A DNA stretch of 63,982 nt, the filler included, from Basidiobolus ranarum (lineage: Eukaryota): the NCBI GenBank assembly GCA_040143965.1. It is 3 parts of 3 records of this genome, joined end to end, with 100 filler letters (N's around TTAATTAATTAA, not from the genome) between each part and the next. Parts side by side here need not be neighbours in the genome. Positions count along the whole stretch, not along the records: positions 22,928 to 45,676 come from JASJQH010000179.1; 2 more parts are not named here. One strand, written 5' to 3'. Under the pieces are notes generated by a model. It was given only the letters and a program-made list of their open reading frames with translations, had not been told where the DNA came from and did no database searches. Below, one piece after another: positions 23,339-45,776 of this stretch (positions within the stretch are counted from its first letter, which is position 1; every line of letters begins with the position of its first letter). The position numbers and the translations under genes were made by a program.

Positions 23339-25740
23339 ATGCTATCTACCGACGATTTACATTATACCCCGGTGCGCCCAGGCAACCCAATACAACTGCT
23401 ACGAAAGAAAAAAAATGCTACGTCTAATGAAGAACTGGAAATAATTCCAGAGGCTCTAGAGATCCTTGGACGTATCACAGGACCAATTGTCGTTGTAGCA
23501 GTTGTTGGAACTATGAGACAAGTAAGCTTGACATACTAAGAAATGCTGCCTAGTCAAGAATTATCATTGATTTTCCCAAAGGGAAAGAGTTACTTATTAT
23601 CTAGGATGCTTGGACGTCAAGAGGCCTTTGAACTTGGACCTACTACTGATCCAAAGACATTTGGTATTTGGACATGGGACACTCCATATGAGGTGACAAT
23701 TAATGACCAAAAGGCTACGCTCATTCTACTAGACACTGAAGGTTACCCAAAATATACACCATAGGACCAAATACTTGATAGACAAAGCTAACAGATTGCT
23801 TCGTATTATAGGTCTAGGAGCTCCAAATGCTACCGAACAATGGTTAATATATGTTACGTGGTAAATCTGACTAAATGATAGCCATTGATCACTCAAAATA
23901 TTGTAGGGATACTAAAATCTTCGTACTTTCTCTTTTGCTGTCATCTCTCTTTATCTACAACACTCGTGGAGCTATCGATCGTGAAGCAATTCAAAAGTTG
24001 AGGATCATGCAGGATTTAACTAGGCTTATTGAATCCAGTAGCGAAGCAGTTGTAGATGAAGATTGTGATGACAATGCCGAGCAATTCTCTGAGTATTTCC
24101 CTGAGTGTATGTCGATTCATATATTTTCTTTCCTTGCCTAAAACTTACGTATAAACTATTCTCCAGTCTTGTGGGTTGTTAGAGACTTCAATCTCAAGTA
24201 TCCTGAAGGTGTCAATACGGCAAAGGAATATCTTCTTCGTGCTCTACGAAGTGAATCCGATACAATGGGCAAAAAGGGGATATCATTGAAAGCACGCCAA
24301 GAAATTAAAGATACCGATGAAATCAGAAAGTCCATCGTATATTATTTTGGTAACGCTGATTGCCATACTATGCCACTGCCAGTGAGTAATCCAGAGGAAA
24401 GTGGTTTCGTTGATATTCCAACAGCCATGCAAAATCTTCGTAAGTAAAGGGCTTTCTATCATAAAAATGCAAACTGAAATATTGACCTATCGATTATAGA
24501 TCTAATTCCATATGAGAGATTGTCAATGGCTTTTAGGTCTTCAATGGATGGATTTCTGGGAAAAGCGGGTGCTATGATGAATTTAAAACGTTTTAAAGAT
24601 GGCTCGCTTATGACTGGTGCGTCCTTTGCTCAACTTCTACAAGTTTATGTCCGGCAGATCAACACCAGTAATTGTATTAAGGTTGCTGATGCTTACCAAG
24701 GTATCACTATTTATCTTAACCTGGCATGGCTGTCTTTAAATTTACCAATTTGATTATTATCTGTAGCTGTGGTTGATCAGGTGACTAAAAAGGCCATAGA
24801 TTTGGCTATTAGTAACTATCGGTCTTGCATGGAGTCATTTGAAAACACACATCCTAACGAGCCCGTCATGGGCGAATTTCTAATTAGTAAACATATCGAA
24901 TTTTACAAAAAATCTCTTGATATTTTAAATCAAAATCTGTTAGGATCTAATGAGGAGGTGGAGAAGGTTCATTTGGAGCTGAAAGAGATGATCATTCAAC
25001 AAGACAAGGATAACCGAATATTAAATAGTTGCGTATTTTCGGAGTTTCATGAGAGAAACTCGGCTCTTATTGTTGCAAGAAATGAAATGTTGGTCAACGA
25101 TATTTGGCAAGGGCTAATTGGTAAGCGCTTAAATGGTTCAGAGAAGGATGAGTTCACTTCATATCAAGAGTTCATTGATGCTATCGGCGCATTTCAAAAC
25201 GAGTATGAAAGAAATTGTTTTCCAGGAGTGGAGGCTAAGCAAGTGTTCCTCAGATATCTGGAAAAAGTTGAGGAGAGTAAAGCCAGGCTCAATATGTGGT
25301 TCAAGCAAAAAGGAATGTTCGAAGAAAGATTGGCCAAGATACAGGAGGAGAATTTGCAAATCCAAAAACAAGCCAATCGCATTCAAATTGAGAATGAGAG
25401 TTTGATAGCCTCCATGAAGAGAATACATGAGGAGCATGAAGCCTCCTTAAATATGATGTGGGAGCGTATTGAAAGCAAGCATCAGGAGGCTGAGGAAGTT
25501 AGAAACCAACGGCAACTTCAATTCGAAAGGCAGCAGGAGGCATTTATCCAGATGAGAGATGACGACTTGGCTGAATTCAAGCAGCTTCAACGAGAAGAAT
25601 TGAAAGAACAGGAAAGAAACATGCAGCGAGATTACGATACAAAACTCAAGGCCCTCCAAGAGGACCATAAAAGATTAGAAGCCGAGAATCAGCAACTAAA
25701 AGCAAAGAAACAGAAAAAGAATTCTTGCAATGTTATGTGA
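23339..25740 (+). CDS. Guanylate-binding protein (GBP)-like large GTPase with C-terminal coiled coil and CaaX
   Basis: After splicing: VVAVVGTMRQ|GKSYLLSRMLG (G1), KTFGIW (G2), LLDTEG (G3), DTKIFVLSLLLSSLFIYN, WVVRDF (G4), then a helical stalk ending KAKKQKKNSCNVM*. Confidence 0.92.
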
Positions 25741-27202
25741 ACATCTGAATTCTCCCCATGTGATATTCTGGCATAGTGGTCGATAGCTAATATTAAATAT
25801 TATACTCTTGTCTTGATTGTATCATGTTTAAATTTCGTATGATCTTCATAACCTGTCTCTCAAACACAATACTACCATGCGTAATTTTAATAACATAATT
25901 GAAAACGTATGGATTCCACCAGTTCCATAATACTTGCGAGTTCGCGAAATAATCTTAATTGAATCATCACATAGGAAGTACTTACAATATTTCGGTCATT
26001 AATATCTCCTGTGCATTAGCTTATACGTAGTTGAAGATTCATTCCATGAGGCCAAAGAAAAAGATATGTTAACACACCAAAAAAAGATTGAGATTCATGA
26101 CCAAGACCAAGAAAAGAACTCTGATACATTCTCTTTTGTATACGCTTCGTTCAAGGGAACTCTAGCTCAATTGTACATACAGCTCTCAGATCCCGAGTGG
26201 CTCTTAATTAGCTCGTATCTGTAATTGACAAGTCGTGTGGGTGGGTAACAAGGCTTATTTGAAACCGATTCCTCCCAGATTATTATTACAATATATATAT
26301 ATATCGATATAATAGAACATATTCGATTTCTCCCAACCTGCTAATATCTATTTTCCCCTTCATTTAGTTCGTCTAATTAGGGTATATTTGGTTTAAAGTT
26401 CCCATGTATAAAGTATATTGATCAAAATACTTTCAAAGGTTGCCTACAAAAGAAGTCAGTTAAGCTCCAGTTGTTTTCAAAAATCATACCAAGTTCTCCT
26501 CATACTTTATATTTCACAGTGGCTGCTTTCAAGTTTCAATCGTAGTATGACCGAATCAAGCCACTTCATGTTTTGTTCCCAAACGATACCAATCCAGTTT
26601 AGTTTCTATCTTGAATGAGTGAATATCGTATTCGATATCATGATTTGCCGATTTTACTGATTACAAATAAATCCAAACCCCGTTGTTGCGCAGAGTATTT
26701 ATAAGGAGGTAATAGTTACATACATCCACATGTTCTGGATTCGAGGGTCAGTAATAGTCAGGTTTTATGGTAGCACCGATTTCAAGTACTTCTAGGAGTT
26801 TACCAATTTGATTCCGAAGGTGCTCGCCAGGCGACGAAGTACAACTTGCGTATGTTAGTTTGATATATGCTTCTGCTTAATTTATCTCATTCTCATTTTA
26901 TAGATATATGAGGTTGAATGAGTGCGTTAAATTTGTGCTATATTAACCAATAGTTAATTTCGCCAAAGGAAAGTACAAGGCCTGATATGATGAAAGTAGT
27001 GAGATAGTTTACTTTGATCAACTAAAGACAATATATTGAAAATATACGGTGGCAATTTTCCTAACGTAAACTACTGCAATTACTTGATAAAAGTACGCTC
27101 GCCATTTCGTAACCGATGATATTCAATGTTCAACCTGGTTCGCGAGATAAAAATAATGTTGCTTATTGATTAACAAAATTTGTCAATAAGCGATAACATG
27201 GT

Positions 27203-29493
27203 TTATGTTATGACACAGTCCCGTCGTTTCATATTTGCACTCCGATGATCAATCGTCATGCAGGTCGCTAAAAAATATTCGGCGGGAATTAAGAGATTTT
27301 GACCAGTCAGTTGAAAATCAACATTCATGACACTAGAATATAGCTCAATAGCTTCCGACGCTGTTACATCATCATAGTATGTGTCTTCTGTTAGAAGGTC
27401 TGGTAAAGCCAACGAAATATCAATGTTTGCATCGAATGTGATTCTCGCAATCTTGATATTTTCTAGAATCCTTGTAAATTCGATTGGATCCTGAACCATT
27501 TTGCGATAGCGATGCTCGCCAAATAATTTTTCTAGGAGCCTTAACACACGTCTATCAATCACAGCTGCACTTTTGTTCTCACCATTCTCTGAAACGGATA
27601 TAGATGGAACTCCACGTGATACCACAGAGGCAGGCTCTTTAGGTGCTACTGAAACAGACTCTTTAGGCCCATAAGATGCTTTTTTGGGGAGAAACAATGC
27701 ACGTCCATCAACCACTGTTGATTTCCTCTTCGCGCCATTCCCCGGAACAGATATAGATGGAACTCTACGTGATACCACTGATGCGCGCTCTTTAGGCCCC
27801 AAAGATTCAGATTCATCAAGAGTTGTCTTAGAAAAAGTACTGATCATCTGTTCAACTCTAGATCTATATGCCTGTTGCGCTATAAATCCCGTATCGGCAC
27901 CAAGCAGTACAGCACCTAGAAATTATGTATACTTAGAGAAATATTCATCAATACGGACAAACTTAAAATTACCTTTCACTATGGCTTCACCAGGCCTTTC
28001 TAAAACTATGATCCTAGCCTTGCCAAACTCTCGAGCAAATCGACTCTGAAGCTTACGGGAATTAGAAAACCCTCCAACTAATGAGATTTTACTATACGTC
28101 ATGGGTAAATAATGAGTGGTATCTCAAATGATGTTATTAGCTACCTAATGCCCTTATGCTGAGTAAGAATGCCTCTAACATGTTCCACTATCCGATTGAT
28201 CGTTGGTTCCATGCAGGTTTTGTAAAAGTAATCATTTGGGACTAAAAGGTTTTGACCAACTAAGCGAAGGTCTACATTGTGCTTCATGGAGTATCGCTCT
28301 GTAGCTTCAATAGCCGTTATCGTATCTTCATGTGTGTTAGCAGTTAAAAAATCTGGTACGACAAGTACATACTCGGAATCCTCATCAAATGCAATTTTCG
28401 CCATTTCGATGTCTTCTTGAATTTTTGCAAATCCAGAAGGGTCCCGAGTCATATTCTGATAACGATGTCTGCCAAATATTTCTTCTAAAAGTTTCAACAC
28501 ACGCCAATTTATGGCTGTCGATCCCCAGTTTCCACCATATGCTGGAATCACTGATCCATATACAGAGATTATTTGTTAGAGCAATTATCAAAGCTTCAGC
28601 AACGAATCATAAGCATACCTTCTTTGATCTTCGGTTGTAGATTAACTTCATGCACAGTAACATCAACACTTTCCCTACTGCAGTTACAAACCATGTGCAT
28701 AGAACCTAAGTTTAATCCTATATTGTTGGATTGAAATGTCCAAAGGAAAGCAGCGTCAGGCTCAAGTACTAATTGTAATGCGTAACCTTTTAGGTCTGCC
28801 AATTCTGCTGCATCTCTCATCACTTGCTTTTCTGCATCACTCCATATAACGGGAACAGTTATAATCCATTTGATTTCACACTCTAGTATGTCATTTGTTG
28901 ATCTGTTGATTTGTGCGAGAAGTGCTATGGAAGTAAATTATTAACATTTTGGATATCGGAGTGGGCATATCTTGGATATTACAATGCTTGATGTACTTCA
29001 AACTTTCAGATAATACAGTTTTAGCAGCAACCTTAATCCCATTAGCTGCAGAAATAAGCATATATCCCCTAACCGATGGCTTATATAAATTCCTTTTGAA
29101 ATGTTCGAAGTATCTGTCTTTGATTTCAGAACCATTCACTTTGCATTTCATTACTATGTCTTGATATTTCGTCTGAGCGGATTTCCCAAAAGCAATGAAC
29201 TTGTTGTTTTCATCTAAAAGCACAGCAGTCTCAGTTTTACCATATTTTCCATCAGCCCACGGACCATTAGAAAAAATGGAATCTCGAGCATCCGTTATCC
29301 CACCCTTTCCGGGGTAGGCAAAAGCATAACTAATATAAATAATTGGTTACGAATATTTTCATGAATTTCAGAACGATAGAATCTACCTTGTCTTATATGT
29401 ACCAAAATCGATTGCAGCAATACACTTGGCATCGGTAGGGCGAATATACTCCCTAAATGGATTAATCTTATCAGGCGCAACTCTTTTAAGCAT
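27203..29493 (-). CDS. HSPA12-like Hsp70 copy A: predicted ATPase-dead, with rearranged C-terminus
   Basis: Six exons appear open: CIAAIDFGTYKTSYAF, ITVPVIW, LVLEPDAAF, VCNCSRESVDVTVH, LVGGFS, IVKGAVLLG, then repeats and a second copy of the IDRRVL...YF..CM segment. Confidence 0.8.
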
Positions 29494-29537
29494 ATCAATG
29501 AAGTAGGAGATAATCTACTTTGCACTCTATATGACAA

Positions 29538-29553
29538 TGCTGACTTAAATACA
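29538..29553 (-). promoter_or_regulatory. Conserved TATA-like element upstream of the HSPA12-like genes (TGTATTTAAGTCAGCA)
   Basis: The same element lies ~35-60 bp upstream of the ATG of copies A (29538), B (34734), C (37691) and, in variant form, D (43152). Confidence 0.6.
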
Positions 29554-31412
29554 TTTTCAATTTTCCCTACAATATTCCATTTCCTATAGTTACTGCTAAC
29601 CAGCACAAGAGACTTGCTATTAACCTTGGTATTATAGCAAATTCAGTTTTAAATCGCATTGGATTTCTGTTGTTTATGATCTGTTGGTATTTTCTATTGG
29701 AAGGTACTACCATTGAACAGGATTTCCCAAAAGAACTTTTACCCATAGTTAGTGTCATTCAATAGAGAAATTAACTTGCACCTGCCTAGCACTGTCCCGA
29801 ATATTCCAGTTATATTCCAGCCTCGATATATCATATGATGAGATATGTAATCAGTACATTTCAAAATATACAGTCTCAAAGAATATTCCCGCTATAAGTG
29901 TGCCATGCTTGGGAGTATACTCATAAGATAAATCGCTGAATTAATGTAGCTAATAAAGTATATAAACGAGATCTGAAAACTGATTCAATCTTTGTGTTGC
30001 TAATTTACATACTCTGATAGTTTCATTATCACCAAGCCAAGTGGAATCAAACTTCTACTAGTGGACTCAATATGCCAATGGTTACATATCTACTTTAAAA
30101 CATAACGAGAATATTTTATCATTGAATCAGATGTGAGAATCTTGCCAATATGAAGGAAAGAACTATTTTCATATATATTGATATATTTAATTGAATTTCG
30201 TTAATTGGAAATTGCTTGCTTGATAGACCTAATTGGCCTGCAAGCCTGTCTATGGCCCAAATACACCAGCTTCATGATTCCTCCTGATATTTGTCACATA
30301 GCCTACTTAACGACCAAATAACAGTCTTTGATATTAAGAAAGTGATTTCGCCACTCTTTCGAATGTTAAATACATTAGGATTCGGCACTACAAGGGAATC
30401 AGTTTTGATCTCTGTTCTTTTAATCCTCCTAATTTTTATGAGCCATGCAATCATAATGACCAAAACTATAATATTAATAGTTAGGATCTTATAGAAAGTA
30501 GCATTTAGAATAATAATTCGGAATTTTAGTGCAAAAAGCATGTTGAGCTCAAAACTGAAATCCTACCTGTAATGAATATAAATGTATGTAATAGCACCAA
30601 GAATAACGTAAACACCATCATAATAACAAAGACTGTTATTAAGGCTCTACTTAGGCTATGTCGCATATATCAAGTTAATACATGGAAGGAATGTAGAGAT
30701 ATTATCTAGCTAGTTGATACCTATCTCGTAGTCTTTTTTATCTCGTTATATGAGCATTTCTTTATCATCACTTTTAGTGAGTTAACATAGCCAAGTAAGC
30801 ATCCAACTTTTATGCAGTATATTACATGTGGGTTAGAACTATGAATACAACCACTAACCACTTTTGCCAGTGATTATGAAAGTACCACCGACCTGCGTAC
30901 AGATAGTGAGTACTACTTGTAGATATTTTATTAACAGTTGAATGAATATCCCCAAACCTCCAAGAAAGTATTTCATGTTGATCTTAATGGTTTTCACTAG
31001 AAAACAATGAATTCTTAGCGTTCGTTTTTATCATGTAAGACCGGGCTCAATAAATATTCATGCCAAGACAAATATTTCAAATTCTGTACTGTTAGCAAGC
31101 AATCAAAAATCATTATGTATTCTACCCTATGTTTCAACACTTCAGCTGTACTTCCATATGGTTGTAACCTGTGGCATGACCGTCATCAATTTACTGATAT
31201 CAGTCTGTATACTGCATACATATAGGCACCCTGAGCTACGCTTCGCAACTGTCATCACTAAATTCTCTAGTTACTCCCAAAGCGACGGAGTGACTCTAAA
31301 ATTCCTGGCATCCGATATTTTTGCTAAAGAAATTTAGTTAGATATTGTTGTGCAACCATATATAACAAAATAGTAGGTTTCAGTTAATATGAAACGGTAC
31401 GTTGTAATTAAT

Positions 31413-31947
31413 TCAAATGTCACACTACCAGCTAGAAGAATCTAGTTTGTATCTTGTTATCAGGACAAGTCTAGATTCGATTACCGGATTAGGTGGTTAC
31501 AGATGCTTCGAAAATTCTAGATTGAATCAAAAACCAATTACCATATGGGTATAAGTAATCTTACACAGTTTATTTTTGTCAATATGTTACAGACCAATTC
31601 AAATCGTCATACGTATTCGGATTAAATCGTGATCTTTTTACCCGATTTACTAAATCTGCATTAAACTTTACACTAACTCCTTCCAAGATCTTTCAAGATG
31701 GCGACCTATTTCTACTCGATTTGGTAAGTAGGAAATTTGCTCTTACCAGGCAACATTGCACATGTAAGCACGGTGTGATCGAATTCTAACTTTGGGATCG
31801 ATATCTTTTATGAGAAACATCATTTTTTCATTCTGGTTTGTAACTAAACTTGTCTCACATACCTGCTTGTCGAAGCACATTTGTATCTTGCTATCATGGC
31901 ATAGTCCAGATTCGACTGCAGGATTGGGTGGTGTTACAGATTTTGAT
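31413..31947. repeat. Diverged ~100-bp direct repeat pair (31413-31512 and 31844-31947)
   Basis: Shared core TTTGTATCTTG(T/C)TATCA...AGTC(T/C)AGATTCGA..(C/A)GGATT(A/G)GGTGGT..TACAGAT. Confidence 0.7.
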
Positions 31948-32588: not shown

Positions 32589-34694
32589 CTACTCATTAAA
32601 TGTTAAACGGACTTGATTGCTTTTTCCTTTAGAATTTACAGCCTTGACGAGTATTTCTGAGGAAAAAAGCATGCTGCAAGTAATTCTAGAATTATTATGT
32701 TAATACCGTGATATCGCAACTGTACTGGGTTATAGTCAATACCTATCATATTTTCCGTCGCATTCCAAATCAAATGAACCGGCTTTCCTAACATGATTGT
32801 CGGTAACAAACTTCACCTCATGCCTGTTCACTTTGTAAATTGCGATATTTACGTTGCTCTGATTATCCTCTACCGCCATATATTCACGGACAATTTCTTC
32901 CCCGACTTCAACAATCTCATTCATTGTCACAAACGGATCGAACACGTCCCGACAATGCTTTGAGCCATCACTAGCGTAAAATATCTTCTCTTCTGGGTGC
33001 ACTGCTGGGTTGAATTCAACGCCAATGCTGCTTCCGTAGGTAAATCTTGCTTTACGTTGGGTCACTAACCCCGGATCGGCTCCAAACAACACAGCGCCTA
33101 TCAGTTTTCATGCTTAGTTTAAATATGTTCCCTCATATAAACAACAGAGATATCACCTTTCATTATAGCTTCTCCTGGCATATCTGGAACAATGATTTTA
33201 ATCTCCTTAAAATCTTGAGTGAATCGATTTTGGAGCGAGCGACAATTGGCAAAATTTCCTACTAAAACGACCTTACTTAAGATCAAGAATCAATATTTGC
33301 TGTACAGAATATTACATATGGTTGATGATACCTTATATCCTTATGCTTATGAATAACACCTTTAACGTGATTCATTGTATCATTAATTGTTGGCTCCATA
33401 CAAGTTTTGTAGAAATAATCAGCGGGAATTGAAAGATTCTGACCCACTAGATGAAGCTCCACATCTTGAGCCTTTGAGTATCTTTTTACGGCTTCTACAG
33501 TGGGTAATCCATCATTATCCAATCCAGATGTCAAGGAATCCGGCAAAACCAGTACAATATCGGTATCTGCGTCAAATGTGATTTTTGCCGCATCGATATC
33601 TTCTGCAATCCTCGCATATCCGAACGGATCTTTAGTCATATTGTTATAACGCTGTTTTCCAAATATTTCTTCTAAAAGTTGCAATACACGCCGATCAATC
33701 GCTGTCGATCCCCAATTTCCTCCATTGGCTGGAATTGCTAATTCATATACAGAGATTCTATGTTAGAGCAATCATCATAGAGACTAGTTCACAGAACAGC
33801 CCTCATTATTAAGGAGTCACAACCATACCTTCTTTCACTTTTCTTTGTGAATACTCAACTTCATGCACAGTAACATCGATGGTTCCCCCACCACAGTCAC
33901 ATACCATGTACACAGAACCTGGTTCCATTCCTAGATCATTGGATTGAAGCACCCAAAGAGAAGCAGCTTCAGGCTCAAGGGCTAGCTGTAGAGCCGCACC
34001 ATGTAAACCTGCCAACTCAGCCGCATCTCTCATTACTTGTTTTGCTGCATCACTCCATATAGCGGGAACTGTTAGAATCCATTTGATTTCACTCTCTATT
34101 ATACCTTGGGTTGATTTGTTTATTTGAGCGAGAAGTACTATGGGTGGAAAAGATGTTAGACTTTGAATATGCGAGTGCTTGTTTAAAGGTATTACCTTCT
34201 TTGATGAACTTTAGACTTGCCGAGAATACAGTTTTAGCGGTAACTTTAACTCCATTAGCTGCAGGAATAAGCATTTTCCCACTAATTGAGGTCTCATATA
34301 AATTCATTTTGAAATATTGGAAATATCTTTCTTTGATTTTAAGACCACCTGCTTGACTTCTCATAGCCATGGCTCGATACTTTGTCTGGGCCGATTTTCC
34401 GAAAGCGATAAACTTATTATTTTCGTCTAGAAGTAGGGCGGTTTTAGTTTTACCCTCCTTTCCATCAGACCATTGACCATTAGTAAAAACGGAACTTCGA
34501 GCCTCTGTAATCCCGTCAGTCCCGGGAAAAGCATAAGCAAAGCTATAACAAGCATTTAATAGCATTCTAGTGAACTCAAGTGTGGTGGGTACCTACCCTG
34601 TACCAGATGTACCAAAATCTATGGCAGCAACGCACTTGGCATTAGTAGGACCAATGTATTCACTAAATATATCAGCAGTAGCTCTTTTTAGCAT
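32589..34694 (-). CDS. HSPA12-like atypical Hsp70, copy B
   Basis: CVAAIDFGTSGTG|YSFAYAF, KTKTALL, WILTVPAIWSDAAKQVMRDAA, LALEPEAAS, CDCGGGTIDVTVH, LVGNFAN, GAVLFG..P..VTQRKARFTYG, ends FNE*. Confidence 0.92.
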
Positions 34695-35496: not shown

Positions 35497-37646
35497 TTAT
35501 TCATTGAATGTCAGACGGACTTGATTACTTTGCCCTCGGGAATTCACTGCCTTGACTAATATTTCAGAGGAGAATAGCATACTAAAATTGACACTAACAT
35601 CCGCATGTTATTATGTTAATTATACAAATAATATATGTATATATGTATATGTCTATTATTACCTATCCTCCCGTCCAGAGCATTCCAAACTAAATGAACC
35701 GATTTGCTCAACCAGAGTATCTGTGATGTATTTCACATCTCGTCTAGGTGCTTTGTAAATTATAAAGTCCATAGTAGATTGCCGTTTTTCCACTGTTTGG
35801 TATGTTCTTGTAACCTCTTTACCTACTTCTAAATTTTCACCCATCAAAACAAACTTGGCAAATATATCTTGGCAATATTTTCGGCCGGCTTTACTCCTAA
35901 ATGATTTATATTCATCATGAACGGCCTCGTCAAACACAGCACTGATTCTGTGTCCGTATGTAAATCTGGATTTCCGTTGCGTCACCAACCCAGGGTCAGC
36001 GCCAAATAGTACGGCACCTAAAAGTGTTATTTAGACATGGAAATATGCATATAAAGAGAAGCAAGGCACTACCTTTTACTATAGCTTCACCAGGAGGGGT
36101 GGGAACTTTTACTTCAATATAGCGAAACTCCTGGATAAATTGTTTCTGAAGCTGGCGGCAATTGGCGAAATTTCCCACTAAAATGATTTTACTACAAAAA
36201 AATTGTTAAATAATGTGTAGTATCCCAGATATTGTTCTTAACTACCTGATCCCCGTATTATTTTTGACAATATTCCTAACATGTGTCACTGTTTGCGTGA
36301 TCGTAGGCTTCATACAGTTTTCGTAAAAATAGTCAGCTGGAATCATAAGATTTTGACCGATCAGGAAAAACTCGGCATTCTTTTTCTCACAAAATCTTTC
36401 CATAGCTTCAGCGGCAGTTGTTGTATCGCCATGCGTTTTAGCAGTTAAAGAATCTGGAACAACAAGTACAATATCAGTATCTTCATCAAATGTAATTTTA
36501 GCCATTTCAATGTCCTCTTTAATCTTCAAAAATCCTAATGGGTCCTCCGTCATATTCAGATACCGATTTTTGCCAAAGATTTCTTCTAAAAGTTGCAATA
36601 CGCGTTGATCTATTGTTGTCGATCCCCAGTCCCCTCCGTCGGCTGGAATTACTAATTTATAGGCAAAGGCTAATTACTAAAACAATCCTCGCTACTTCCA
36701 TAGAAACTTGCGATCCTACCTTCTTTCACCTTTCTTTGCGAGTAGTCAACTTCATGCACAGTAACATCGATAGTTCCCCCACCGCAGTCACATATCATGT
36801 ACTTAGAATCTGGGTCCATGCTTAGGTCATTGGATTGAAGTGCCCAAAGGGAGGCAGCCTCTGGCTCAAGCGCTAACTGCAAGGCAACACCTTTTAAACC
36901 TGCCAATTCTGCTGCCTCTCTCATCACTTGCTTTGCTGCATCACTCCATATTGCGGGAACTGTTAGGACCCATTTGATATCACGCTCGGATATACCATTT
37001 GTTGATTGGTCAATTTGGGCGAGAAGGGCTATGGGGGTAATATACGTTAGCATTTTGGGTATATTAGTGACTATAGTTGGAGATAATACTTTTCTTAATG
37101 TATTTCAAACTCTCAGAAAATACAGTTTGAGCAGCAATCTTAACTCCGTTAGCTGCAGAAATAAGCATCTTTCCACTAACGGATGTCTTATACAAATTCA
37201 TTTTGAAACATTCAAAATATCTTTCTTTGATTTCAGGTTTAGATGAACTTGCGTTGCCTTTCATGACCATGGCTTGGTATTTGGCTATGTCAGATTTATA
37301 TTTCATTGCTATGGATTGATATTTCTTCTGGGCCACTTTTCCGAAAGCCATAATCTTATTATTTTCATCTAAGAGTAAAGCGGTCTTAGTTTTACCATCC
37401 TTTCCATCAGCCCATGGACCATTGGAAAATAATGCGGTTCGAGCGTCTTTAATCCCGTCAGATCCAGGAAAAGCATAAGCATAGCTATAAAAAATATTTA
37501 GTCTTATTCCAATGAATTCAAGTATGATGCGCACCTTACCCTGTACCAGATGTGCCAAAATCGATAGCGGCGACACATTTCGCATTGGTGGGTCCAATAT
37601 ACTCGTCAAATACGTTAGCAGTAGTAGTAGTAGCTCTTCTGATCAT
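35497..37646 (-). CDS. HSPA12-like atypical Hsp70, copy C
   Basis: Same motifs and intron positions as copy B (IDFGTSGTG, VPAIWS, EPEAAS, DCGGGTID, GNFAN, RKSRFTYG), ends FNE*. Confidence 0.92.
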
Positions 37647-38996: not shown

Positions 38997-40061
38997 TTAA
39001 CTTATGCATACGAGCTGCATCTTTGTTGGCTGACGAGCACCGTGCGAATCAATTTGGTAGATGGCAGGTAGAACGGGAAACGGAACTTCTACAGCAGGTA
39101 CAATTACACCCTTCAGTAAAAATGAAGCATTCGTTTGTTGTTGCGTAAAGTCATATTCAACTTTTGGTTCTACCAATGAGAGTAACAAAATTGTATCGAT
39201 AAGACCTTCCAGATGAGCTTGCACGCCATCAAATAGTTGTTCAGTTTGGATATTACTTAGTACAGCAGTACATATCCTTTTATGCATATCAGACTGTAAA
39301 CTGGAGTTTTCGAAGTTGGCAATGATGATTGATTTGACGTACATTAGATTGCGCTGGTAAAAATCTGAATCATCGGCTTCCTCATGACCCAAACAGAGTA
39401 AAGTATGAGTAATATGCTCAAACATTGTTCTAAACGTCATTCCAAAGATTTCCTCAAGAAGCTTGGAAAGATACATCACTTGATGTAAAACGTTTGTCGG
39501 TTGCGTTTTTTGTGCCGTAAGAGAAGAAAAAACAACCGATTTGATTTTATTTTCGAACTTCTTAAATCGTGGCACTAAGTTTTCCAGTGTCACTGTTTGC
39601 AGCTGACCATTTGCTGTGACGAGCTGACTAAGTAATCGGGCGGTCTCATTCTGGGCCTTGCTTAACTCTACGGTCAATCTTTTCTGGACACCTGTTAATT
39701 CGGTCTTCTCATGTTGAATATATAGGTTAACTTCGTTTTGAAACTTGCTGCCTTGCTTATGTTGTTCATGCAACATTTCATACATTCTATTCATCTTCTG
39801 TTCCAATGTGCCAATGCTTATGGCGACGTTAGTACTACTTCCGCAACACGACTGCTCCTTAGGGCTAGATTTTTCTCTTAGCACACCTGGACTGGTTTCG
39901 ACTTTCTTTTGCCTGTTCTGACTGAGGCCACCTGGTTGGCCTTTGGGGTTAGCATAGTATTCAGGCATATGCCCTTTTCTTTCTGGATAGGAATTCGGTG
40001 TTTGCATATTAGGAGCCTCTTTGGGGTTACTGCCAGTCAAAGGGTTTTTCATAGTGCTCAT
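38997..40061 (-). CDS. Uncharacterised intronless coiled-coil protein CC1, paralog of 43977-44981
   Basis: Long ORF (open up to 40175; MSTMKNP start preferred). Disordered N-terminus, coiled coil, and a C-terminal domain shared with CC2. Confidence 0.8.
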   Translation of the reverse strand: MSTMKNPLTGSNPKEAPNMQTPNSYPERKGHMPEYYANPKGQPGGLSQNRQKKVETSPGVLREKSSPKEQSCCGSSTNVAISIGTLEQKMNRMYEMLHEQHKQGSKFQNEVNLYIQHEKTELTGVQKRLTVELSKAQNETARLLSQLVTANGQLQTVTLENLVPRFKKFENKIKSVVFSSLTAQKTQPTNVLHQVMYLSKLLEEIFGMTFRTMFEHITHTLLCLGHEEADDSDFYQRNLMYVKSIIIANFENSSLQSDMHKRICTAVLSNIQTEQLFDGVQAHLEGLIDTILLLSLVEPKVEYDFTQQQTNASFLLKGVIVPAVEVPFPVLPAIYQIDSHGARQPTKMQLVCIS

Positions 40062-41116: not shown

Positions 41117-43117
41117 TTACTCATTAAATTTTAACCGGATCTGGTTTGTCTCGCCACTAGAGTTTTCTGCTTTGACTAATATCTCTGAAGAGAATATCAT
41201 GGTGTATTTGATCCTAGAATATAGCTAGTTTAACAATGAGTATAGAGGTATTGCTTTCATTATAGTTACCTATCATTACTTCCCTTGCAGGGTAATGTGA
41301 AAGATCCTATCTGTTTGACCTGAAAGTCAGTGGTAAATTTTACTTCACGCCTTGCCACTTTGAATATTTGAAAACCAACTGTGGTATTATCATCATCCAA
41401 AGCATAATATTCCCGGGAAACTTCCTCACCTACCGCCATCTCCTCTCCCATGATTGCAAGTCGATCAAAGATATCATTGCAGTGCTTAGTTCCTCTCTTT
41501 GTTGTTATGGCTTTTGATTCTGGGTGTATACTTTCATCGAAAACGTGAGCCACTCGTTCTCCGTAGGTAAAGCGCAATTTACGAGATGTTACTAGCGCAG
41601 GGTTAGCTCCAAATAAGACAGCACCTTTCATTATAGCATCTCCAGGTAAATTTGGGATGATAACATCGACAGACCGGAAAGATTCGATGAATTTAGTCTG
41701 AAGTGGTCGGCAGTTGGCGAAATTTCCTACTAAAACAATTTTGCTAGATAACAAGTGAGTAAAAATATGAGGTATAGTCATCTATACCAGTAGATACCTT
41801 ATTCCGGGGTTTCGACCTAATATTCCCTTGACGTGAGCTACTGTCGAATTAATGGTTGGCTCCATGCATGTCTTGTAAAAGTAAGTTGCAGGAATTAAAA
41901 AATTGGAACCCAACAGCTGGAAGTCGGCATTTTCATTACTAGAGTAGAGGGATACTGCTTCTTCAACAGAAAGTTCATCATCAGGTGTTTGTGATGCTAA
42001 TGATTCGGGAAGTACCAGAACAATATCAGTATCGATATCAAATGATATTTTGACTGATTCGATATCCTCAAGTAGCTTTGTATATCCCATCGAATCCTGA
42101 AGCATGCGCTTATAGCGCTGCTGTCCAAATATCCTTTCTAAAAGAGCTAGCACTCGTCTATCAATAGCTGTTGATCCCCAGTCTCCTCCAGTTGCAGGTA
42201 TTGCTATTGAGTATCGGGTTAGTCTTGGTAAAAGGTTGGATTACTTCTTGATTCCTGTTAATACCTTCTTTGACCTTTCGCTGCGAAGAATCCACTGCAT
42301 GGACAGTGACGTCAATAGTTCCGCCTCCACAATCACAAACCATATAGGTAGAACCTACGTCTACACGTAGGTCATTAGATTGTAAAACCCACAAGGACGC
42401 AGCCTCCGGTTCAAGAGCCAATTGTAGTGCTACACCCCTCAAACCTGCTAATTCTGCAGCTTCTTTCATCACTTGCTTTGCAGCATCACTCCATATAGCT
42501 GGGACTGTTAAAATCCATTTGATATCACTTTCATCCATGTGCCCACTGGATTTGGTGATTTGGTCCATCAATGCTGAAATTGATTTTCGAATTAATTTTC
42601 AAACATCATACATCAATGACAATTACTTAAAAACTTACACTTTTTGATGTATTTTAAACTTTCGGAAAATACTATAGTCGCCGAAACTTGGTCACCATTT
42701 TTAGCTTTTATTTTCAAACCTGCATTCACCGAGTCTGTGTAGAGATTCATTTTAAAATACTCAAAATATCTCCCTTTATTTTGAAATGCCATAGCTCGAT
42801 ATTTTGTTTGCGCCGCTTTTCCAAACGCTATAAATTTGTTGTTCTCATCCAAGAGTAATGCCGTCTTGGTTTTCCCGGGTCTTCCATCAGCCCAAGGACT
42901 GTTAGTATAAACGGAGCCTCGTGCATCGCTTATTCCATCCCAACCTGGAAATGCAAACGCATATCTATTCATATGTTAGTTTACAAGGCCTTTTGCTCAA
43001 TATTAGGTTGAAGACTCACCCGGTACCAGATGTTCCGAAATCAATGGCAGCTACGCATTTTGCAGTTGTTGGGCCTGTGTATTCCCTGAATATATCTGGA
43101 GTTGGACCTTGAAGCAT
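41117..43117 (-). CDS. HSPA12-like atypical Hsp70, copy D
   Basis: MLQGPTPDIFREYTGPTTAKCVAAIDFGTSGTG|YAFAF, VPAIWS, EPEAAS, DCGGGTID, LVGNFAN, RKLRFTYG, ends FNE*. Confidence 0.92.
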
Positions 43118-43976
43118 AATACAGATTATTTTAGATACAGTAACTTGCCAAGGCTGATATTTAAATAGTTAACACCACTTAATGAAATTGCACGGAGTTA
43201 AACAATTGCGTTCATAATATAGAAATCACCACGGTAATAACACTACGATATGAGGTAGTTTCCTTTGGCCGTACAAATGGTGTACGTTGCCCCAAATAAT
43301 AAATATCTTTGTATCACAGTATATGGCGAACTGAACTAGCAGTATTCGTGAGTTCTTGATCGATAATTCACCGGATGTACATCATTTGGGTTGTGCCTGT
43401 GTGAGATGATACAAAGCATTAACTGTTTAAAAAACATTCTAGCCCATTGTTTTCTAAATACTTCCCACCGTTGAAGTACCTTCTTTATTATAAGCATATG
43501 AATTATAATTCGACAATAGATTTTGTCATCTTGAATGAGATTATGCCCCTAATTGAATATAGAATATTCTTGGGCTAATAAAAGAGTCTTGCTAATTTCT
43601 TGTAATATTCAGGTATTTCTAATTTGGAAACATCAGCGATAGAATTAAAATATCCTCCACAAGTACTATTCTTAGTCACATGAGGCAATGGGACACCAGG
43701 ATTGAGAAATTAATGTACCAACAGATCATGACCACAATATAAGAAGGACGCTGTTTCCAACCTACCAGATCAGAGTTCACACACCAATGGCTACACCTAA
43801 CGATTTACTGCCAAATAATGGCATGCAATTAGACGTGAGTAGAGGAGATCAATCCATTGAAGGCAAGAAAGACAATAATGGCACTTCGGTAATATAGTCA
43901 TCTGATTTTTCATATATAGCATGTATTAAATCGTTCTTCTGAATTTTAGACTTTAGACTATCTACATCAAGTAATT

Positions 43977-44981
43977 ATGGGGAAGCCACAGACGAACTAT
44001 AAAAATCACCATGAAAGCAATGAAGGCAATCAAAACTTGATAAGAGAACTTGAACGAATGCAATCACGAATTACTAGTTTGGAGAGGAGCAATGCTAACA
44101 TTGAAGAAAAACTACTATACATTGGCTTAGAGTCCCATGCTGCTAAAGGGTTTAAAAATCACAACGAAGACAAACAAAGAATCAAATTTCTGGAGAAGGA
44201 ATGCGCAAACTTGTGCAAGCAAAACTCATCTTTGAAAGATTATGAAAAGAAGTACAACAATCTCAAAACTCAGATTCAGGAATTTCAAAAAAATTACGAT
44301 GGTCTACTAGCCGCTTGTGACATGCAAGCTAAACAATTGGAGCGTGAGAAAAATGAAAATGCTAATTTACGAAGCCAACTTGTAACTGCTGATGGACAAG
44401 TGAAGGAAGTCACCATAGAGAGCATTTTTGGGTCCCTAAAAGCTTTTGAAAGTAAGGTCACCCCAGTCCTATTTAAGATCGGAAAGACTCCAAATATCTG
44501 TCATGATCTTGATGCGTTCTCCAAAGCCATGCAACAACTATTCAATACAACTTCCGCCTTTGCGGCTAGCCATGTTGAAGACACCATGGCTAAGTTAGGC
44601 CACCTTCGCGATGATAAGTCGCAACTGTGCGTTCGTAATCGAGTTTATGTTCGAACAATTATTATCGCTAATCTTGAAAATTCCGGTTTAATGCAACAGA
44701 TGTGTGATGAGGTTCTTAAAGGACTGGCTGAAGAATACCACACCAATAGCTTATTTTCTCATATTCTAATGCATCTGCCTAATTTAGTAAATGCAGCATT
44801 GCTTCTTGCTCTAGTAGAGCCACAGGTTGCTACATCATTCAAGTTGAGAGGAGACTCTATTGCCATGCTGAAGGATTTCGCTGGAAGCAAAAGGCCAATT
44901 CCAATTCTTCCTGCCATCGATCAGGTTGGGATTAACGGCGATTTTCAGCCGACCAAGATGGTTATGCGGTATATTAACTAG
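43977..44981 (+). CDS. Uncharacterised intronless coiled-coil protein CC2, paralog of 38997-40061
   Basis: 334-aa ORF with a heptad-rich N-terminal half; C-terminal half aligns with CC1 (SQLVTAxGQ, RNxxYVxxIIIANxENS, LLLxLVEPxV, PxLPAIxQ, QPTKM). Confidence 0.85.
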   Translation: MGKPQTNYKNHHESNEGNQNLIRELERMQSRITSLERSNANIEEKLLYIGLESHAAKGFKNHNEDKQRIKFLEKECANLCKQNSSLKDYEKKYNNLKTQIQEFQKNYDGLLAACDMQAKQLEREKNENANLRSQLVTADGQVKEVTIESIFGSLKAFESKVTPVLFKIGKTPNICHDLDAFSKAMQQLFNTTSAFAASHVEDTMAKLGHLRDDKSQLCVRNRVYVRTIIIANLENSGLMQQMCDEVLKGLAEEYHTNSLFSHILMHLPNLVNAALLLALVEPQVATSFKLRGDSIAMLKDFAGSKRPIPILPAIDQVGINGDFQPTKMVMRYIN

Positions 44982-45356
44982 TATCTCAGGCTCATTCAAT
45001 TTCAATGAATAAAATAGGGCATCTTTGATCCTTGTATAGTGTAAACCCATTTAGCCGCCTTGAATTTCAAATATACCAAGTCAAATGTTCTGAATACAAA
45101 GCTAAGACGAGTCGATGCGACTCTACAGGCTTTACAACTGATGATATATGTGCCATTCTTCTAGCAGTTAAGTTACTCAGATATATACTATTGAAAAGTT
45201 GAAGTGTGTATAAACATGCCAGTCATAGTGAGATCAATGAATTGAATATATATTATGATCACATGAGTAGTTTATTGATCGAATTTTATAAATGTCGTGA
45301 TATTTGCAATGAAATATTTTATTATAGTTAATATGAAAACTCGCAAATCAATTAAA

Positions 45357-45676
45357 TCAATCACTAAAGCTGATTCGTATTTCCTTTGTCTCTCCTTGAG
45401 AGTTCACAGCTTTGGCTAATATTTCCGAGGAAAATAGCATACTAAATTTTACGCTATATAATATATTAGTTCCAGGATCTATGCTGATATTTCGAAAATT
45501 GATTACCTATCATCTGGGCCACACCAAACTATGTCGAAAGTGCCGACTTTTTGAACTCTAAAATCAGTTGTGTACATTATTTGGGGCCTGGGTGCCTTGA
45601 AGATTTCAAACGTAATTGACTTTTGCTCCAACTCAATGGCAAAATATTCTCTAGTTATTACTTCGTTAGGTTCCAA
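45357..45676 (-). CDS. HSPA12-like Hsp70 copy E, 3' end only (truncated by gap)
   Basis: EVITREYFAIELEQKSITFEIFKAPR...TTDFRVQKVGTF|...KFSMLFSSEILAKAVNSQGETKEIRISFSD*, with the same last intron as copies B-D. Confidence 0.85.
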
Positions 45677-45776
45677 NNNNNNNNNNNNNNNNNNNNNNNN
45701 NNNNNNNNNNNNNNNNNNNNTTAATTAATTAANNNNNNNNNNNNNNNNNNNNNNNNNNNNNNNNNNNNNNNNNNNN
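45677..45776. other. Artificial contig/scaffold spacer
   Basis: 44 N + TTAATTAATTAA + 44 N. Confidence 0.97.

What the first reader, a model, noticed from the sequence alone, without database searches (positions are those of the whole stretch)
23339..45676. Candidate undescribed immune-like cluster: prenylated GBP + tandem HSPA12-like Hsp70 array + novel coiled-coil partners
Seen: the ~22.7-kb block between the spacers contains no housekeeping gene. It holds one GBP-like GTPase, at least five co-oriented, strongly diverged HSPA12-like genes, and two paralogous orphan coiled-coil genes interleaved with them. Established: GBPs are dynamin-superfamily effectors of cell-autonomous immunity in animals, HSPA12 is an atypical Hsp70 prone to lineage-specific expansion, and Hsp70s work with coiled-coil cofactors. 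Inference: a physically linked, birth-and-death-evolving GTPase/Hsp70/cofactor module for defence or non-self recognition in a fungus, reminiscent of bacterial neighbourhoods pairing dynamin-like GTPases with atypical Hsp70s.
Basis: partly seen in the sequence, partly recalled or inferred. Interest (0 to 1): 0.88.

Follow-up and report, generated by a model that had tools for sequence, protein, structure and literature searches.

The report
Fungal HSPA12-type ATPase array with partner genes
One small contig of the fungus Basidiobolus ranarum carries five copies of an Hsp70-like gene of unknown function, interleaved with a nearly unique coiled-coil gene family that is probably their helper, next to a GBP-type GTPase gene whose link to them is unproven.

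Summary
The "spacers" are artificial linkers (N44-TTAATTAATTAA-N44), so the block is one whole 22,749-bp contig of Basidiobolus ranarum.

It holds:
- one true GBP with intact G motifs, ending in CNVM;
- four complete HSPA12-like genes, one of them rearranged, plus a fifth cut by the contig end, all on the minus strand;
- two paralogous coiled-coil (CC) genes, plus a relic of a third.

The HSPA12-like copies form one fungal clade, so they are local duplicates and not contamination. The CC family is nearly unique: 4 hits among 1.84 billion representative proteins. Each CC copy lies just 3' of an HSPA12-like gene.

Bacterial relatives of the ATPase keep a coiled-coil partner gene directly downstream in 19 of 26 loci. 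Three of those loci have the ATPase inside one large ORF, and the one scanned carries a trypsin-STAND NTPase front. A complex prediction for H4+CC1 gave weak support (0.55 against 0.01 for controls). ESM Atlas features hint that the CC tail is MIEAP-like, but HMM searches do not confirm this.

The GBP link is unsupported: no GBP lay near 80 metagenomic or 26 bacterial homologue loci.

Best reading: a tandemly amplified ATPase-plus-partner module. A defence role, and GBP as a member, remain inference.

The parts
22828..22927 (.). Artificial linker (N44-TTAATTAATTAA-N44) joining contig 1 to the middle contig. It is not biology.
23339..25740 (+). GBP-type large GTPase gene (K7432_004899, 673 aa). 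It has several short introns, G motifs GTMRQGKS / DTEG / VVRD, a C-terminal helical and coiled-coil region, a polybasic stretch, and ends in CNVM.
26774..26860 (+). Relic of a third CC-family gene. Only the last ~25 codons are recognisable (14 of 23 residues match the CC1 tail). It lies tail-to-tail about 370 bp from the 3' end of H1.
   Evidence: tblastn E 6e-4; profile E 0.035
27203..29493 (-). H1: a rearranged HSPA12-like gene. The N-terminal ~460 residues are family-like. These are followed by a 153-bp tandem duplication and a second copy of the middle sub-domain in place of the normal C-terminal domain. It is either a derived chimera or a decaying copy.
32592..34694 (-). H2: HSPA12-like gene (K7432_004901, 546 aa as annotated). 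It has 6 annotated exons and 5 GT..AG introns of 54-91 bp. A further family-typical last exon near 32592-32690 is left out of the annotation.
35500..37646 (-). H3: HSPA12-like gene (K7432_004902, 564 aa as annotated), built like H2. A last exon near 35500-35600 is left out of the annotation.
38997..40052 (-). CC1: intronless coiled-coil gene (351 aa). It has a disordered N-terminus, a helical hairpin, and a conserved C-terminal domain of ~200 aa. It lies about 1.07 kb downstream of H4 on the same strand.
41117..43117 (-). H4: HSPA12-like gene (K7432_004904, 569 aa). The full model has 6 exons and 5 GT..AG introns of 54-65 bp.
43787..44981 (+). CC2: paralogue of CC1 (K7432_004905, 377 aa, 2 exons). 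It is head-to-head with H4 (669-bp shared upstream region) and tail-to-tail about 380 bp from H5.
45360..45676 (-). H5: the last ~85 codons of a fifth HSPA12-like gene, cut by the contig end. It is probably the missing end of K7432_016230 (477 aa, partial, on a 3,327-bp contig). This is an inference.
45677..45776 (.). Second artificial linker.

Best explanation
The contig is a lineage-specific tandem amplification of a two-gene unit in Basidiobolus ranarum. The unit is an HSPA12-type (lidless, atypical Hsp70) ATPase gene plus, just 3' of it, a gene for a coiled-coil protein with a conserved ~200-aa tail domain.

Proposed mechanism (inferred). The ATPase keeps an active Hsp70-type nucleotide-binding domain. 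The coiled-coil protein binds it as a dedicated cofactor or adaptor, acting either as a nucleotide-exchange-type regulator like GrpE or as a scaffold that recruits clients. The pair acts as an ATP-driven switch or remodeller.

History. The unit duplicated repeatedly. Some copies lost the partner (H2, H3), one partner decayed to a relic, and one ATPase was rearranged (H1).

What is shown: the genes, their paralogy, their geometry, the fungal ancestry of the ATPases, the rarity of the CC family, and conserved pairing of the ATPase with a downstream coiled-coil gene in bacteria.

What is inferred: physical binding, cofactor activity, and any stress or defence role.

The neighbouring prenylatable GBP is a real gene. 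Its membership in the module is not shown.
For: Geometry. All three CC copies lie 3' of an ATPase gene:
- H5/CC2 tail-to-tail, about 380 bp apart;
- H1/relic tail-to-tail, about 370 bp apart;
- H4 then CC1 in tandem, about 1.07 kb apart.

Concentration. At least two of the three annotated CC genes of the species lie here, as do three of the four B. ranarum ATPase proteins listed. H1 and H5 were seen only in the window. The third CC gene and the fourth ATPase protein are on other small contigs.

Rarity. A profile of the CC family found 4 proteins among 1,835,955,588 representatives: the 3 from B. ranarum and one unnamed 321-aa protein at E 3.9e-10.

Ancestry. In a FastTree tree of 60 rows, the 4 Basidiobolus ATPases form one group (97). 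They are sister to Jimgerdemannia (100), lie inside a fungal group of 20 (98), and are apart from animals. Introns are 50-91 bp with GT..AG ends.

Active-site motifs align to DnaK: EPEAAS to EPTAAAL and DCGGGTIDV to DLGGGTFDI.

Bacterial relatives. In 26 full-length relatives (Actinomycetes and filamentous cyanobacteria), a homologous ORF of about 230-300 aa with a coiled-coil front starts directly after the ATPase gene in 19 of 26. A ~420-aa upstream partner occurs in 8 of 26. In 3 loci the ATPase is the C-terminal part of a 1,650-1,850-aa ORF. The one scanned (L096) has Trypsin_2 and AAA_16/nSTAND in front.

Complex prediction, H4 + CC1(70-351): weak support, score 0.55, best of 3 controls 0.01. 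The mark was reached by 51 of 78 solved complexes and 2 of 108 mismatched pairs, but at 0.60 or under by only 5 of those 78 and by all 4 mismatches that passed (of 180). The runs agree in at least 61% of contacts, and partner pLDDT is at least 74.

Earlier notes of this scan, read after my own bacterial result, report the same ATPase-partner pairing in bacteria and Naegleria.
Against: - There is only one locus, on a 22.7-kb contig. No whole genome is held and no sequencing runs were offered, so linkage statistics and expression could not be tested.
- The fungal CC family shows no significant sequence similarity to the bacterial partner. hhalign gave probability 1.4% on whole alignments. On the tails it gave E 0.39, with a collinear alignment only at relaxed settings.
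- H2 and H3 have no partner gene next to them.
- No shared upstream motif was found above shuffled controls.
- The complex score lies in the range where passes are 'more often wrong than right unless the guess was likely beforehand'.
- None of the 80 metagenomic homologue loci held a CC-family gene. Their flanks are short, though: only 14 loci are 4 kb or longer.
Confidence: 0.5

Rival explanations
1. GBP, HSPA12-like ATPases and coiled-coil proteins form one three-part cell-autonomous defence or non-self-recognition module. The farnesylated GBP coats a target membrane and the ATPase-cofactor pairs act with it.
For: - The GBP is full-length and aligns end to end with human GBP2/5/1 (E 8e-42 to 2e-39), against 4e-8 for atlastin. 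It keeps GTMRQGKS, DTEG and VVRD and ends KKQKKNSCNVM.
- It lies 1.5 kb from the array, with only a CC relic between.
- Family reputation. HSPA12 genes are expanded and vary in presence or absence in bivalves (bioRxiv 10.1101/2020.09.15.298695, passages). An HSP12-related chaperone was the gene most induced by MDP and poly I:C in a coral, alongside GiMAP GTPases (PMC3723955, passages).
- Bacterial relatives of the ATPase are fused to trypsin-STAND fronts, lie beside STAND NTPases, and in one locus lie beside an integrase.
- GTPase-plus-Hsp70 conflict systems exist in multicellular bacteria (PMC7159879, passages).
Against: - There is one instance only.
- No GBP-like sequence was found in 80 metagenomic homologue loci (256,578 bp; tblastn E up to 1).
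- None was found in 26 bacterial loci (one chance-level 21-residue hit, E 0.85).
- Among 152 neighbouring bacterial ORFs, 7 have a Walker A motif and none has an [NT]KxD motif.
- 30 neighbour ORFs scanned with Pfam showed no GTPase family.
- The published systems use DO-GTPases, not dynamin or GBP types.
- No shared promoter motif links the GBP to the others.
- No expression or challenge data exist.
Confidence: 0.15
2. There is no functional module. The contig is simply a tandem array of a fast-duplicating gene family, with unrelated neighbours (CC genes, GBP) carried along by segmental duplication.
For: - HSPA12-like genes are arrayed in tandem in many organisms. 12 of the 17 hits longer than 700 aa hold two HSPA12 modules in one annotated protein, in chytrids, bivalves and a fish.
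- Paired tandem copies are reported in bivalves (bioRxiv 10.1101/2020.09.15.298695, passages).
- Duplicating a segment copies whatever lies in it, so interleaving alone is weak evidence.
- H2 and H3 lack partners.
Against: - A coiled-coil gene in the same position directly after the ATPase gene recurs in 19 of 26 bacterial loci.
- Almost the whole tiny CC family sits beside ATPase genes.
- The weak pass in complex prediction.
Confidence: 0.25
3. The contig is a contaminant or a misassembly and does not belong to the fungus.
For: - It is a short contig.
- The best non-self hits by score include bivalves.
- No Basidiobolus meristosporus protein was among the 120 listed hits.
Against: - The ATPases fall inside a fungal clade, next to Jimgerdemannia and chytrids and apart from animals.
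- Introns are 50-91 bp, a compact gene structure, and the annotated models are reproduced exactly.
- G+C is 0.35-0.38, like the neighbouring contigs at 0.32-0.44. One of those contigs carries a Zn2Cys6 fungal transcription factor.
- Paralogues lie on two further contigs of the same assembly.
Confidence: 0.03

Closest known systems
Animal HSPA12A/HSPA12B and the expanded HSPA12-like (HSP70-12) genes of bivalves
   Same: - The Hsp70-type nucleotide-binding domain has intact phosphate-binding motifs.
- Length is about 550-570 aa.
- The nearest named relatives are 'heat shock 70 kDa protein 12A/B-like' proteins.
- The genes form tandem arrays with lineage-specific expansion.
   Different: - This is a fungal clade separate from the animal ones.
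- The array is small (5 copies) and interleaved with a partner gene family.
- HSPA12 function is itself unknown (PMC13580251, passages).
Mammalian prenylated GBPs (GBP1/2/5)
   Same: - The large GTPase domain and helical domain align over nearly the whole length.
- The P-loop has the arginine (GxxRxGKS), and DTEG and the RD motif are present.
- The C-terminus is Cys-x-x-Met after a polybasic run. I recall, from no call, that human GBP2 ends CNIL and GBP1 ends CTIS.
   Different: - It is a single gene in a fungus, with a longer coiled-coil tail.
- Nothing is known about its regulation.
- Prenylation and any immune role are untested.
Bacterial operon of an HSPA12-like ATPase followed by a coiled-coil partner (Actinomycetes, cyanobacteria). 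It is unnamed in print as far as my searches show, but noted earlier in this scan.
   Same: - The ATPase is 25-31% identical over about its full length.
- The partner gene lies directly 3' and has a coiled-coil front, a helical middle and a short strand-rich tail that ends about 20 residues after a PAxY-like motif.
   Different: - No significant sequence similarity between the fungal and bacterial partners.
- Bacteria often add a ~420-aa upstream gene or fuse the ATPase to a trypsin-STAND front.
MIEAP / SPATA18 domain proteins (Pfam PF16026)
   Same: - The architecture is a coiled coil plus a C-terminal domain of about 200 aa.
- ESM Atlas features for CC1: score 0.91 with 185 of 256 shared, and 21 of 30 hits in the MIEAP set.
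- Atlas structure row: TM 0.43 by query, 184 residues aligned over 152-351.
- The tail of the distant member P0125 scores 0.88 against MIEAP clusters.
- Mieap and HSP70 families are both among the bivalve-enriched expansions (PMC8382680, passages).
   Different: - No PF16026 match by hmmscan even at E up to 10.
- The Atlas rows are 'under the bar' and are leads only.
DnaK-GrpE and the DO-GTPase / Hsp70 conflict systems of multicellular bacteria (Kaur et al. 2020, PMC7159879)
   Same: - The logic of an Hsp70-type ATPase with a dedicated coiled-coil cofactor encoded beside it.
- A precedent for GTPase plus Hsp70 in conflict systems.
   Different: - No GrpE family match, and GrpE is not among the listed fold matches.
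- The published systems use TRAFAC DO-GTPases, GAP1, and DnaK-like Hsp70 with GrpE and DnaJ. None of these is present here.

Membership tests
GBP (guanylate-binding protein, dynamin superfamily) | N-terminal large GTPase domain (Pfam PF02263) above threshold | tested here: met
   E 3e-53, 181.1 bits against a cut-off of 21.1
GBP (guanylate-binding protein, dynamin superfamily) | C-terminal helical domain (PF02841) | tested here: met
   E 2.9e-7, 30.6 bits against a cut-off of 24.3, covering residues 317-653. Aligns to human GBP2 residues 19-572.
GBP (guanylate-binding protein, dynamin superfamily) | GBP-type G motifs: P-loop with internal Arg, DxxG, and RD in place of NKxD | tested here: met
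   GTMRQGKS aligns to GLYRTGKS, DTEGLG to DTEGLG, and WVVRDF to WTLRDF in the printed alignment
GBP (guanylate-binding protein, dynamin superfamily) | C-terminal CaaX box and actual prenylation (only some GBPs have this) | tested here: inconclusive
   The protein ends ...KAKKQKKNSCNVM. The motif is present, but the modification cannot be tested with these tools.
GBP (guanylate-binding protein, dynamin superfamily) | Induction by infection and an antimicrobial role | not testable with these tools
HSPA12-type atypical Hsp70 | Hsp70/actin-fold nucleotide-binding domain with phosphate-binding motifs | tested here: met
   PF00012 E 7e-13 to 3e-16. The profile hits DnaK at E 2.5e-16 with EPEAAS and DCGGGTIDV aligned to the DnaK motifs.
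HSPA12-type atypical Hsp70 | Closer to HSPA12A/B-like proteins than to canonical Hsp70 | tested here: met
   Named hits are HSPA12A/B-like at 41-57% identity over the conserved exon. Canonical DnaK, BiP and Hsc70 are hit only at E 1e-10 to 1e-7 over about 190 residues.
HSPA12-type atypical Hsp70 | No alpha-helical lid and a non-canonical substrate-binding part | tested here: inconclusive
   The proteins end at 546-569 aa. Pfam HSP70 covers only profile positions ~52-300 of 599. A collinear piece against DnaK residues 402-501 is not significant, i-E 140.
HSPA12-type atypical Hsp70 | Heat-shock element control (a feature of canonical inducible Hsp70, used as a contrast) | tested here: not met
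   No nGAAnnTTCnnGAAn or its inverse anywhere on the middle contig. The one match in the window is at 59352.
MIEAP domain (PF16026) | Match to the family HMM | tested here: not met
   No PF16026 row at E up to 10 for 4 full proteins or for 3 isolated tail domains
MIEAP domain (PF16026) | Same fold and features in the C-terminal domain | tested here: inconclusive
   ESM Atlas scores 0.91 with 185 shared features and 0.88. The structure row gives TM 0.43 over residues 152-351, marked 'under the bar'. No solved MIEAP structure appeared in the fold searches.
GrpE-like nucleotide-exchange factor | Sequence match to GrpE (PF01025 or solved GrpE chains) | tested here: not met
   No GrpE row in Pfam or among PDB chains at E up to 10 for the fungal profile or the bacterial profile
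GrpE-like nucleotide-exchange factor | GrpE-like fold of the tail | tested here: inconclusive
   C-terminal domain model: pLDDT 78.2, pTM 0.77. Best VIA match has Z 5.2 and GrpE is not among the 50 rows. Foldseek found nothing at E 1e-3 or better. The last ~60 residues were not modelled alone.
GrpE-like nucleotide-exchange factor | Encoded beside its cognate Hsp70-type ATPase | tested here: met
   Window geometry. Bacterial partner present in 19 of 26 loci.
DO-GTPase / Hsp70 conflict systems (Kaur et al. 2020) | TRAFAC DO-GTPase pair with a GAP1 component beside the Hsp70 | tested here: not met
   The window's GTPase is a GBP. None of 152 bacterial neighbour ORFs has both a Walker A and an [NT]KxD motif. 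This is a motif-level test only; GAP1 was not searched for by profile.

The most novel reading that the evidence does not exclude
The coiled-coil genes are very diverged MIEAP-domain proteins, and MIEAP-type coiled-coil proteins are the ancient, dedicated partners of HSPA12-type ATPases from bacteria through protists and fungi to animals. That would explain why the HSP70-12 and Mieap families are both among the large bivalve expansions. It would give two orphan human protein families (HSPA12A/B and MIEAP/SPATA18) a shared mechanism. In Basidiobolus, this ATP-driven pair would sit beside a farnesylated GBP as a membrane-directed stress or defence locus.
Probability: 0.15. Interest if true: 0.85.

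Novelty: new variant of a known kind. Interest (0 to 1): 0.55.

Why it matters
A 2026 review states that HSPA12 function "is presently unknown", despite massive expansion of the family in bivalves (PMC13580251, passages read). A partner gene that stays next to the ATPase gene, in a fungus and in bacterial operons, gives a concrete pair to purify and assay. It turns "what does HSPA12 do?" into a testable question about a two-protein machine.

Bacterial relatives are fused to trypsin-STAND NTPase fronts, which points to a regulated conflict or stress role rather than bulk protein folding.

If the MIEAP likeness holds, it would link two poorly understood animal families. The GBP shows that prenylatable GBPs occur in an early-diverging fungus.

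Tried and rejected
- Whole genome of the window: none is held.
- GBP homologue search with the C-terminal exon found only the gene itself.
- CC family:
  - No Pfam family beyond coiled-coil noise.
  - UniRef's automatic name 'FRIGIDA-like' for CC2 has no support in Pfam.
  - No PDB sequence match except coiled coils.
  - The full-length model matched only coiled-coil hairpins, Z about 9 over residues 69-152, and nothing in Foldseek.
  - The C-terminal domain model had no convincing match: best Z 5.2, and no Foldseek E at or below 1e-3.
  - The metagenome scan found no relative; 49 pattern matches, none confirmed.
- Homology of fungal and bacterial partners: not significant.
- PADLOC: no defence family for the ATPase, the GBP, or the bacterial module (one 12.9-bit row at E 0.008). 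NCBIfam: only weak DnaK/HscA rows.
- Fusions: none of the 120 ATPase homologues carries a CC-like or GBP-like part.
- Promoters: no canonical heat-shock element on the contig, and no k-mer shared by the six upstream regions beyond shuffled controls.
- My exon mapper failed on the GBP gene, so its exon table rests on tblastn only.
- dN/dS was not attempted. At 59-67% protein identity, synonymous sites are saturated.
- Literature: searches for HSPA12 with fungi, with mitochondria-eating protein, with GrpE, and for Hsp70 with dynamin in conflict systems listed no paper describing this pairing. I judged this from listings and abstracts only.
- Supplementary files of PMC8382680, which give chromosome maps of bivalve HSP70 genes, were closed. 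They might bear on HSPA12-Mieap adjacency.

Full report
What the window is. The window holds four N runs of 44 bases. Each pair flanks TTAATTAATTAA, a stop in all six frames. The "spacers" are therefore artificial linkers, and the window is three unrelated contigs. The finding covers the whole middle contig, 22928-45676, which is 22,749 bp. An exon of one Hsp70-like gene hit NCBI proteins of Basidiobolus ranarum that lie on a contig of exactly 22,749 bp. The GBP and CC genes map to the same contig. A neighbouring contig carries a Zn2Cys6 fungal transcription factor. G+C is 0.35-0.38 on the middle contig and 0.32-0.44 elsewhere in the window.

Gene content. tblastn with the annotated proteins places HSPA12-like genes only on the middle contig, all on the minus strand:
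- H1 at 27227-29493
- H2 at 32592-34694
- H3 at 35500-37646
- H4 at 41120-43117
- H5 at 45360-45676, a fragment of the last ~85 codons cut by the contig end

The annotated models of H2, H3, H4, CC1 and CC2 are reproduced exactly. H2, H3 and H4 each have 5 GT..AG introns, of 50-91 bp. CC2 has one intron of 61 bp and CC1 has none. H2 and H3 have a further family-typical last exon that the annotation omits.

H1 is aberrant. After about 460 family-like residues it carries a 153-bp tandem duplication and a second copy of the middle sub-domain in place of the normal C-terminal domain.

H5 begins about 8 residues after the point where the partial protein K7432_016230 ends (477 aa, on a 3,327-bp contig). 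The two are probably one gene split between contigs. This is an inference.

The GBP. The 673-aa protein matches Pfam GBP at E 3e-53 and GBP_C at E 2.9e-7. Against solved structures it aligns nearly end to end with human GBP2, GBP5 and GBP1 (E 8e-42 to 2e-39), while atlastins reach only 4e-8. The printed alignment shows GTMRQGKS opposite GLYRTGKS, DTEGLG opposite DTEGLG, and WVVRDF opposite WTLRDF. The protein ends KAKKQKKNSCNVM. That is a Cys-x-x-Met box after a polybasic run, so farnesylation is plausible but untested. That X = Met favours farnesyl transfer, and that human GBP2 ends CNIL, are recalled from memory and come from no call.

The ATPases. Pfam HSP70 matches only the nucleotide-binding part (E 7e-13 to 3e-16). 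A profile of 13 fungal members hits DnaK at E 2.5e-16, with EPEAAS and DCGGGTIDV aligned to the DnaK motifs EPTAAAL and DLGGGTFDI. The nucleotide site therefore looks intact. Named relatives are "heat shock 70 kDa protein 12A/B-like" proteins of bivalves, plus hypothetical proteins of chytrids and Jimgerdemannia.

I built a FastTree tree from 60 rows chosen out of the 120 listed hits. The rows were 13 single-module fungal proteins (two short fungal rows were left out), 21 single-module animal proteins, 13 unnamed ones, and 13 module-length pieces cut from 8 long proteins. In it:
- the four Basidiobolus proteins form one group (support 97);
- they are sister to Jimgerdemannia (100);
- they lie inside a fungal group of 20 rows (98);
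- they are apart from the animal rows (95).

The array is thus a local duplication of an old fungal gene and not animal contamination. Twelve of the 17 hits longer than 700 aa hold two HSPA12 modules, so tandem copies are common elsewhere too.

The coiled-coil family. CC1 (351 aa) and CC2 (377 aa) are 36% identical over 217 residues (E 3e-34). The conserved part is the C-terminal ~200 residues, not the coiled coil. A third paralogue, K7432_013912, lies on a 5,960-bp contig. A profile search of 1,835,955,588 representative proteins found 4 proteins in all: these three and one unnamed 321-aa protein at E 3.9e-10. Between the GBP and H1, a 29-codon stretch at 26774-26860 (+) matches the last 23 residues of CC1 at 14 positions (tblastn E 6e-4, profile E 0.035). 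I read it as the relic of a third local CC gene.

All three CC copies lie 3' of an ATPase gene:
- H5 and CC2 are tail-to-tail, about 380 bp apart.
- H1 and the relic are tail-to-tail, about 370 bp apart.
- H4 is followed by CC1 on the same strand after about 1.07 kb.

The duplicated unit was therefore probably ATPase plus CC.

What the CC protein looks like. AlphaFold2 with the four-sequence alignment gives a disordered N-terminus, a helical hairpin at 71-144, and a helical domain with two short strands at the end (pLDDT 62.7). The C-terminal 202 residues alone give pLDDT 78.2 and pTM 0.77. Neither model has a convincing match among solved structures.

The ESM Atlas gave a lead to the MIEAP domain:
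- For CC1 by features, the score is 0.91 with 185 of 256 features shared, and 21 of 30 hits fall in the PF16026 set.
- One structure row has TM 0.43 with 184 residues aligned over 152-351, marked under the bar.
- For the tail of the distant member, a Mucoromycota cluster scores 0.92 and chordate MIEAP clusters score 0.88.

hmmscan shows no PF16026 match even at E up to 10. The MIEAP likeness therefore remains a lead only. A bivalve genome study lists both an HSP70 family and a Mieap family among the bivalve-enriched expansions (PMC8382680, passages read; supplements closed).

Relatives elsewhere and their neighbours. A scan of prokaryotic genomes with the fungal ATPase alignment returned 30 loci. 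I used the 26 with near full-length matches (25-32% identity), from Actinomycetes and filamentous cyanobacteria, and dropped 4 partial weak ones.
- In 19 of the 26, a homologous ORF starts directly after the ATPase gene.
- An alignment of 13 of these shows a coiled-coil front and a conserved tail. Six were dropped for internal stops, mis-extension or fragmentation.
- A ~420-aa upstream gene recurs in 8 of 26.
- In three loci the ATPase is the end of a 1,650-1,850-aa ORF. The one scanned has Trypsin_2 and AAA_16/nSTAND in front.
- Other neighbours include a STAND-WD40 protein, an NB-ARC-TPR protein, an NPHP3_N protein and a phage-type integrase.
- No GTPase was seen. Of 152 neighbour ORFs, 7 have a Walker A motif and none an [NT]KxD motif. 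tblastn with the GBP gave only a chance-level hit, E 0.85.

In metagenomes, 80 loci (256,578 bp, 14 of them at least 4 kb long) held no GBP-like or CC-like sequence. Twenty neighbour ORFs showed a helicase, DUF488, B-box, SUMO-like and WD40 families, but no GTPase.

Sequence comparison of the fungal CC family with the bacterial partner is not significant. With relaxed settings, though, the tails align collinearly: YDF with WDF, and LPAIY with APAY.

Only after these results did I read earlier notes of this scan. They report the same ATPase-partner pairing in bacteria and in Naegleria, with the partner tail called GrpE-like in some notes and MIEAP-like in another. They are leads, not support. 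I reproduced the bacterial pairing, did not reproduce the GrpE likeness for the fungal family, and reached the MIEAP lead independently.

Binding test. The complex prediction for H4 (569 aa) with CC1 residues 70-351 gave the verdict "weak support":
- Median score 0.55 (runs 0.46, 0.56, 0.55), against 0.01 for the best of 3 controls.
- The mark was reached by 51 of 78 solved complexes and 2 of 108 mismatched pairs. At 0.60 or under it was reached by only 5 of those 78 and by all 4 mismatches that passed (of 180).
- The runs agree in at least 61% of contacts, and partner pLDDT is at least 74.

Regulation. There is no canonical heat-shock element on the contig, and no k-mer is shared by the six upstream regions beyond shuffled controls.

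Verdict. The best-supported reading is a tandemly amplified two-gene unit, an HSPA12-type ATPase plus a dedicated coiled-coil partner, undergoing birth and death in B. ranarum (confidence about 0.5). The GBP is genuine and interesting in its own right, but its membership rests on one adjacency and is not echoed in any relative examined. A defence role is suggested only by family reputation and by the STAND and trypsin fusions of bacterial relatives. The published bacterial GTPase-Hsp70 systems (PMC7159879, passages read) are of a different kind.

Noticed in passing
L096:4239-9791 (+); also L097:4227-9791 and L098:4256-9196: In Actinoplanes, Dactylosporangium and Paractinoplanes, the HSPA12-like ATPase is the C-terminal part of a 1,650-1,850-aa ORF. 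In L096 the front carries a trypsin-like peptidase and a STAND-type NTPase, an NLR-like layout with an Hsp70-type domain where a sensor domain would usually sit.
   Followed up: partly
L013:445-8015: A metagenomic contig that looks prokaryotic (G+C 0.42) carries, in order, a 1,170-aa SF1 helicase (AAA_11/AAA_12, with weak Schlafen-helicase and nSTAND rows), an HSPA12-like gene, a 380-aa unknown gene, and a DUF488 gene.
   Followed up: partly
L055:188-2044 (-) and L059:181-2091 (-); L025:286-2064 (+): On very AT-rich metagenomic contigs (G+C 0.18-0.22), intronless HSPA12-like genes sit beside ~600-aa ORFs with a SUMO-like Rad60-SLD end or a B-box zinc finger. The organisms are unknown.
   Followed up: no
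window 22700-22827: The first contig ends in a run of imperfect 9-base repeats (ctaccaaat-like), which probably explains why the assembly broke there.
   Followed up: no
window 32592-32690 and 35500-35600 (-): The public models of K7432_004901 and K7432_004902 stop early, by reading into an intron. A conserved last exon, homologous to the last 31 residues of K7432_004904, lies downstream in both.
   Followed up: partly
window 29500-32590: A 3.1-kb stretch between H1 and H2 has no long ORF and no relic of any of the three families at the thresholds used. Its origin is unexplained.
   Followed up: partly
window 848-4037, 49201-51645, 58993-60075: The two flanking contigs carry ordinary genes: an FAD-dependent oxidoreductase, ornithine decarboxylase, a Zn2Cys6 transcription factor and gamma-glutamyltranspeptidase.
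   Followed up: partly
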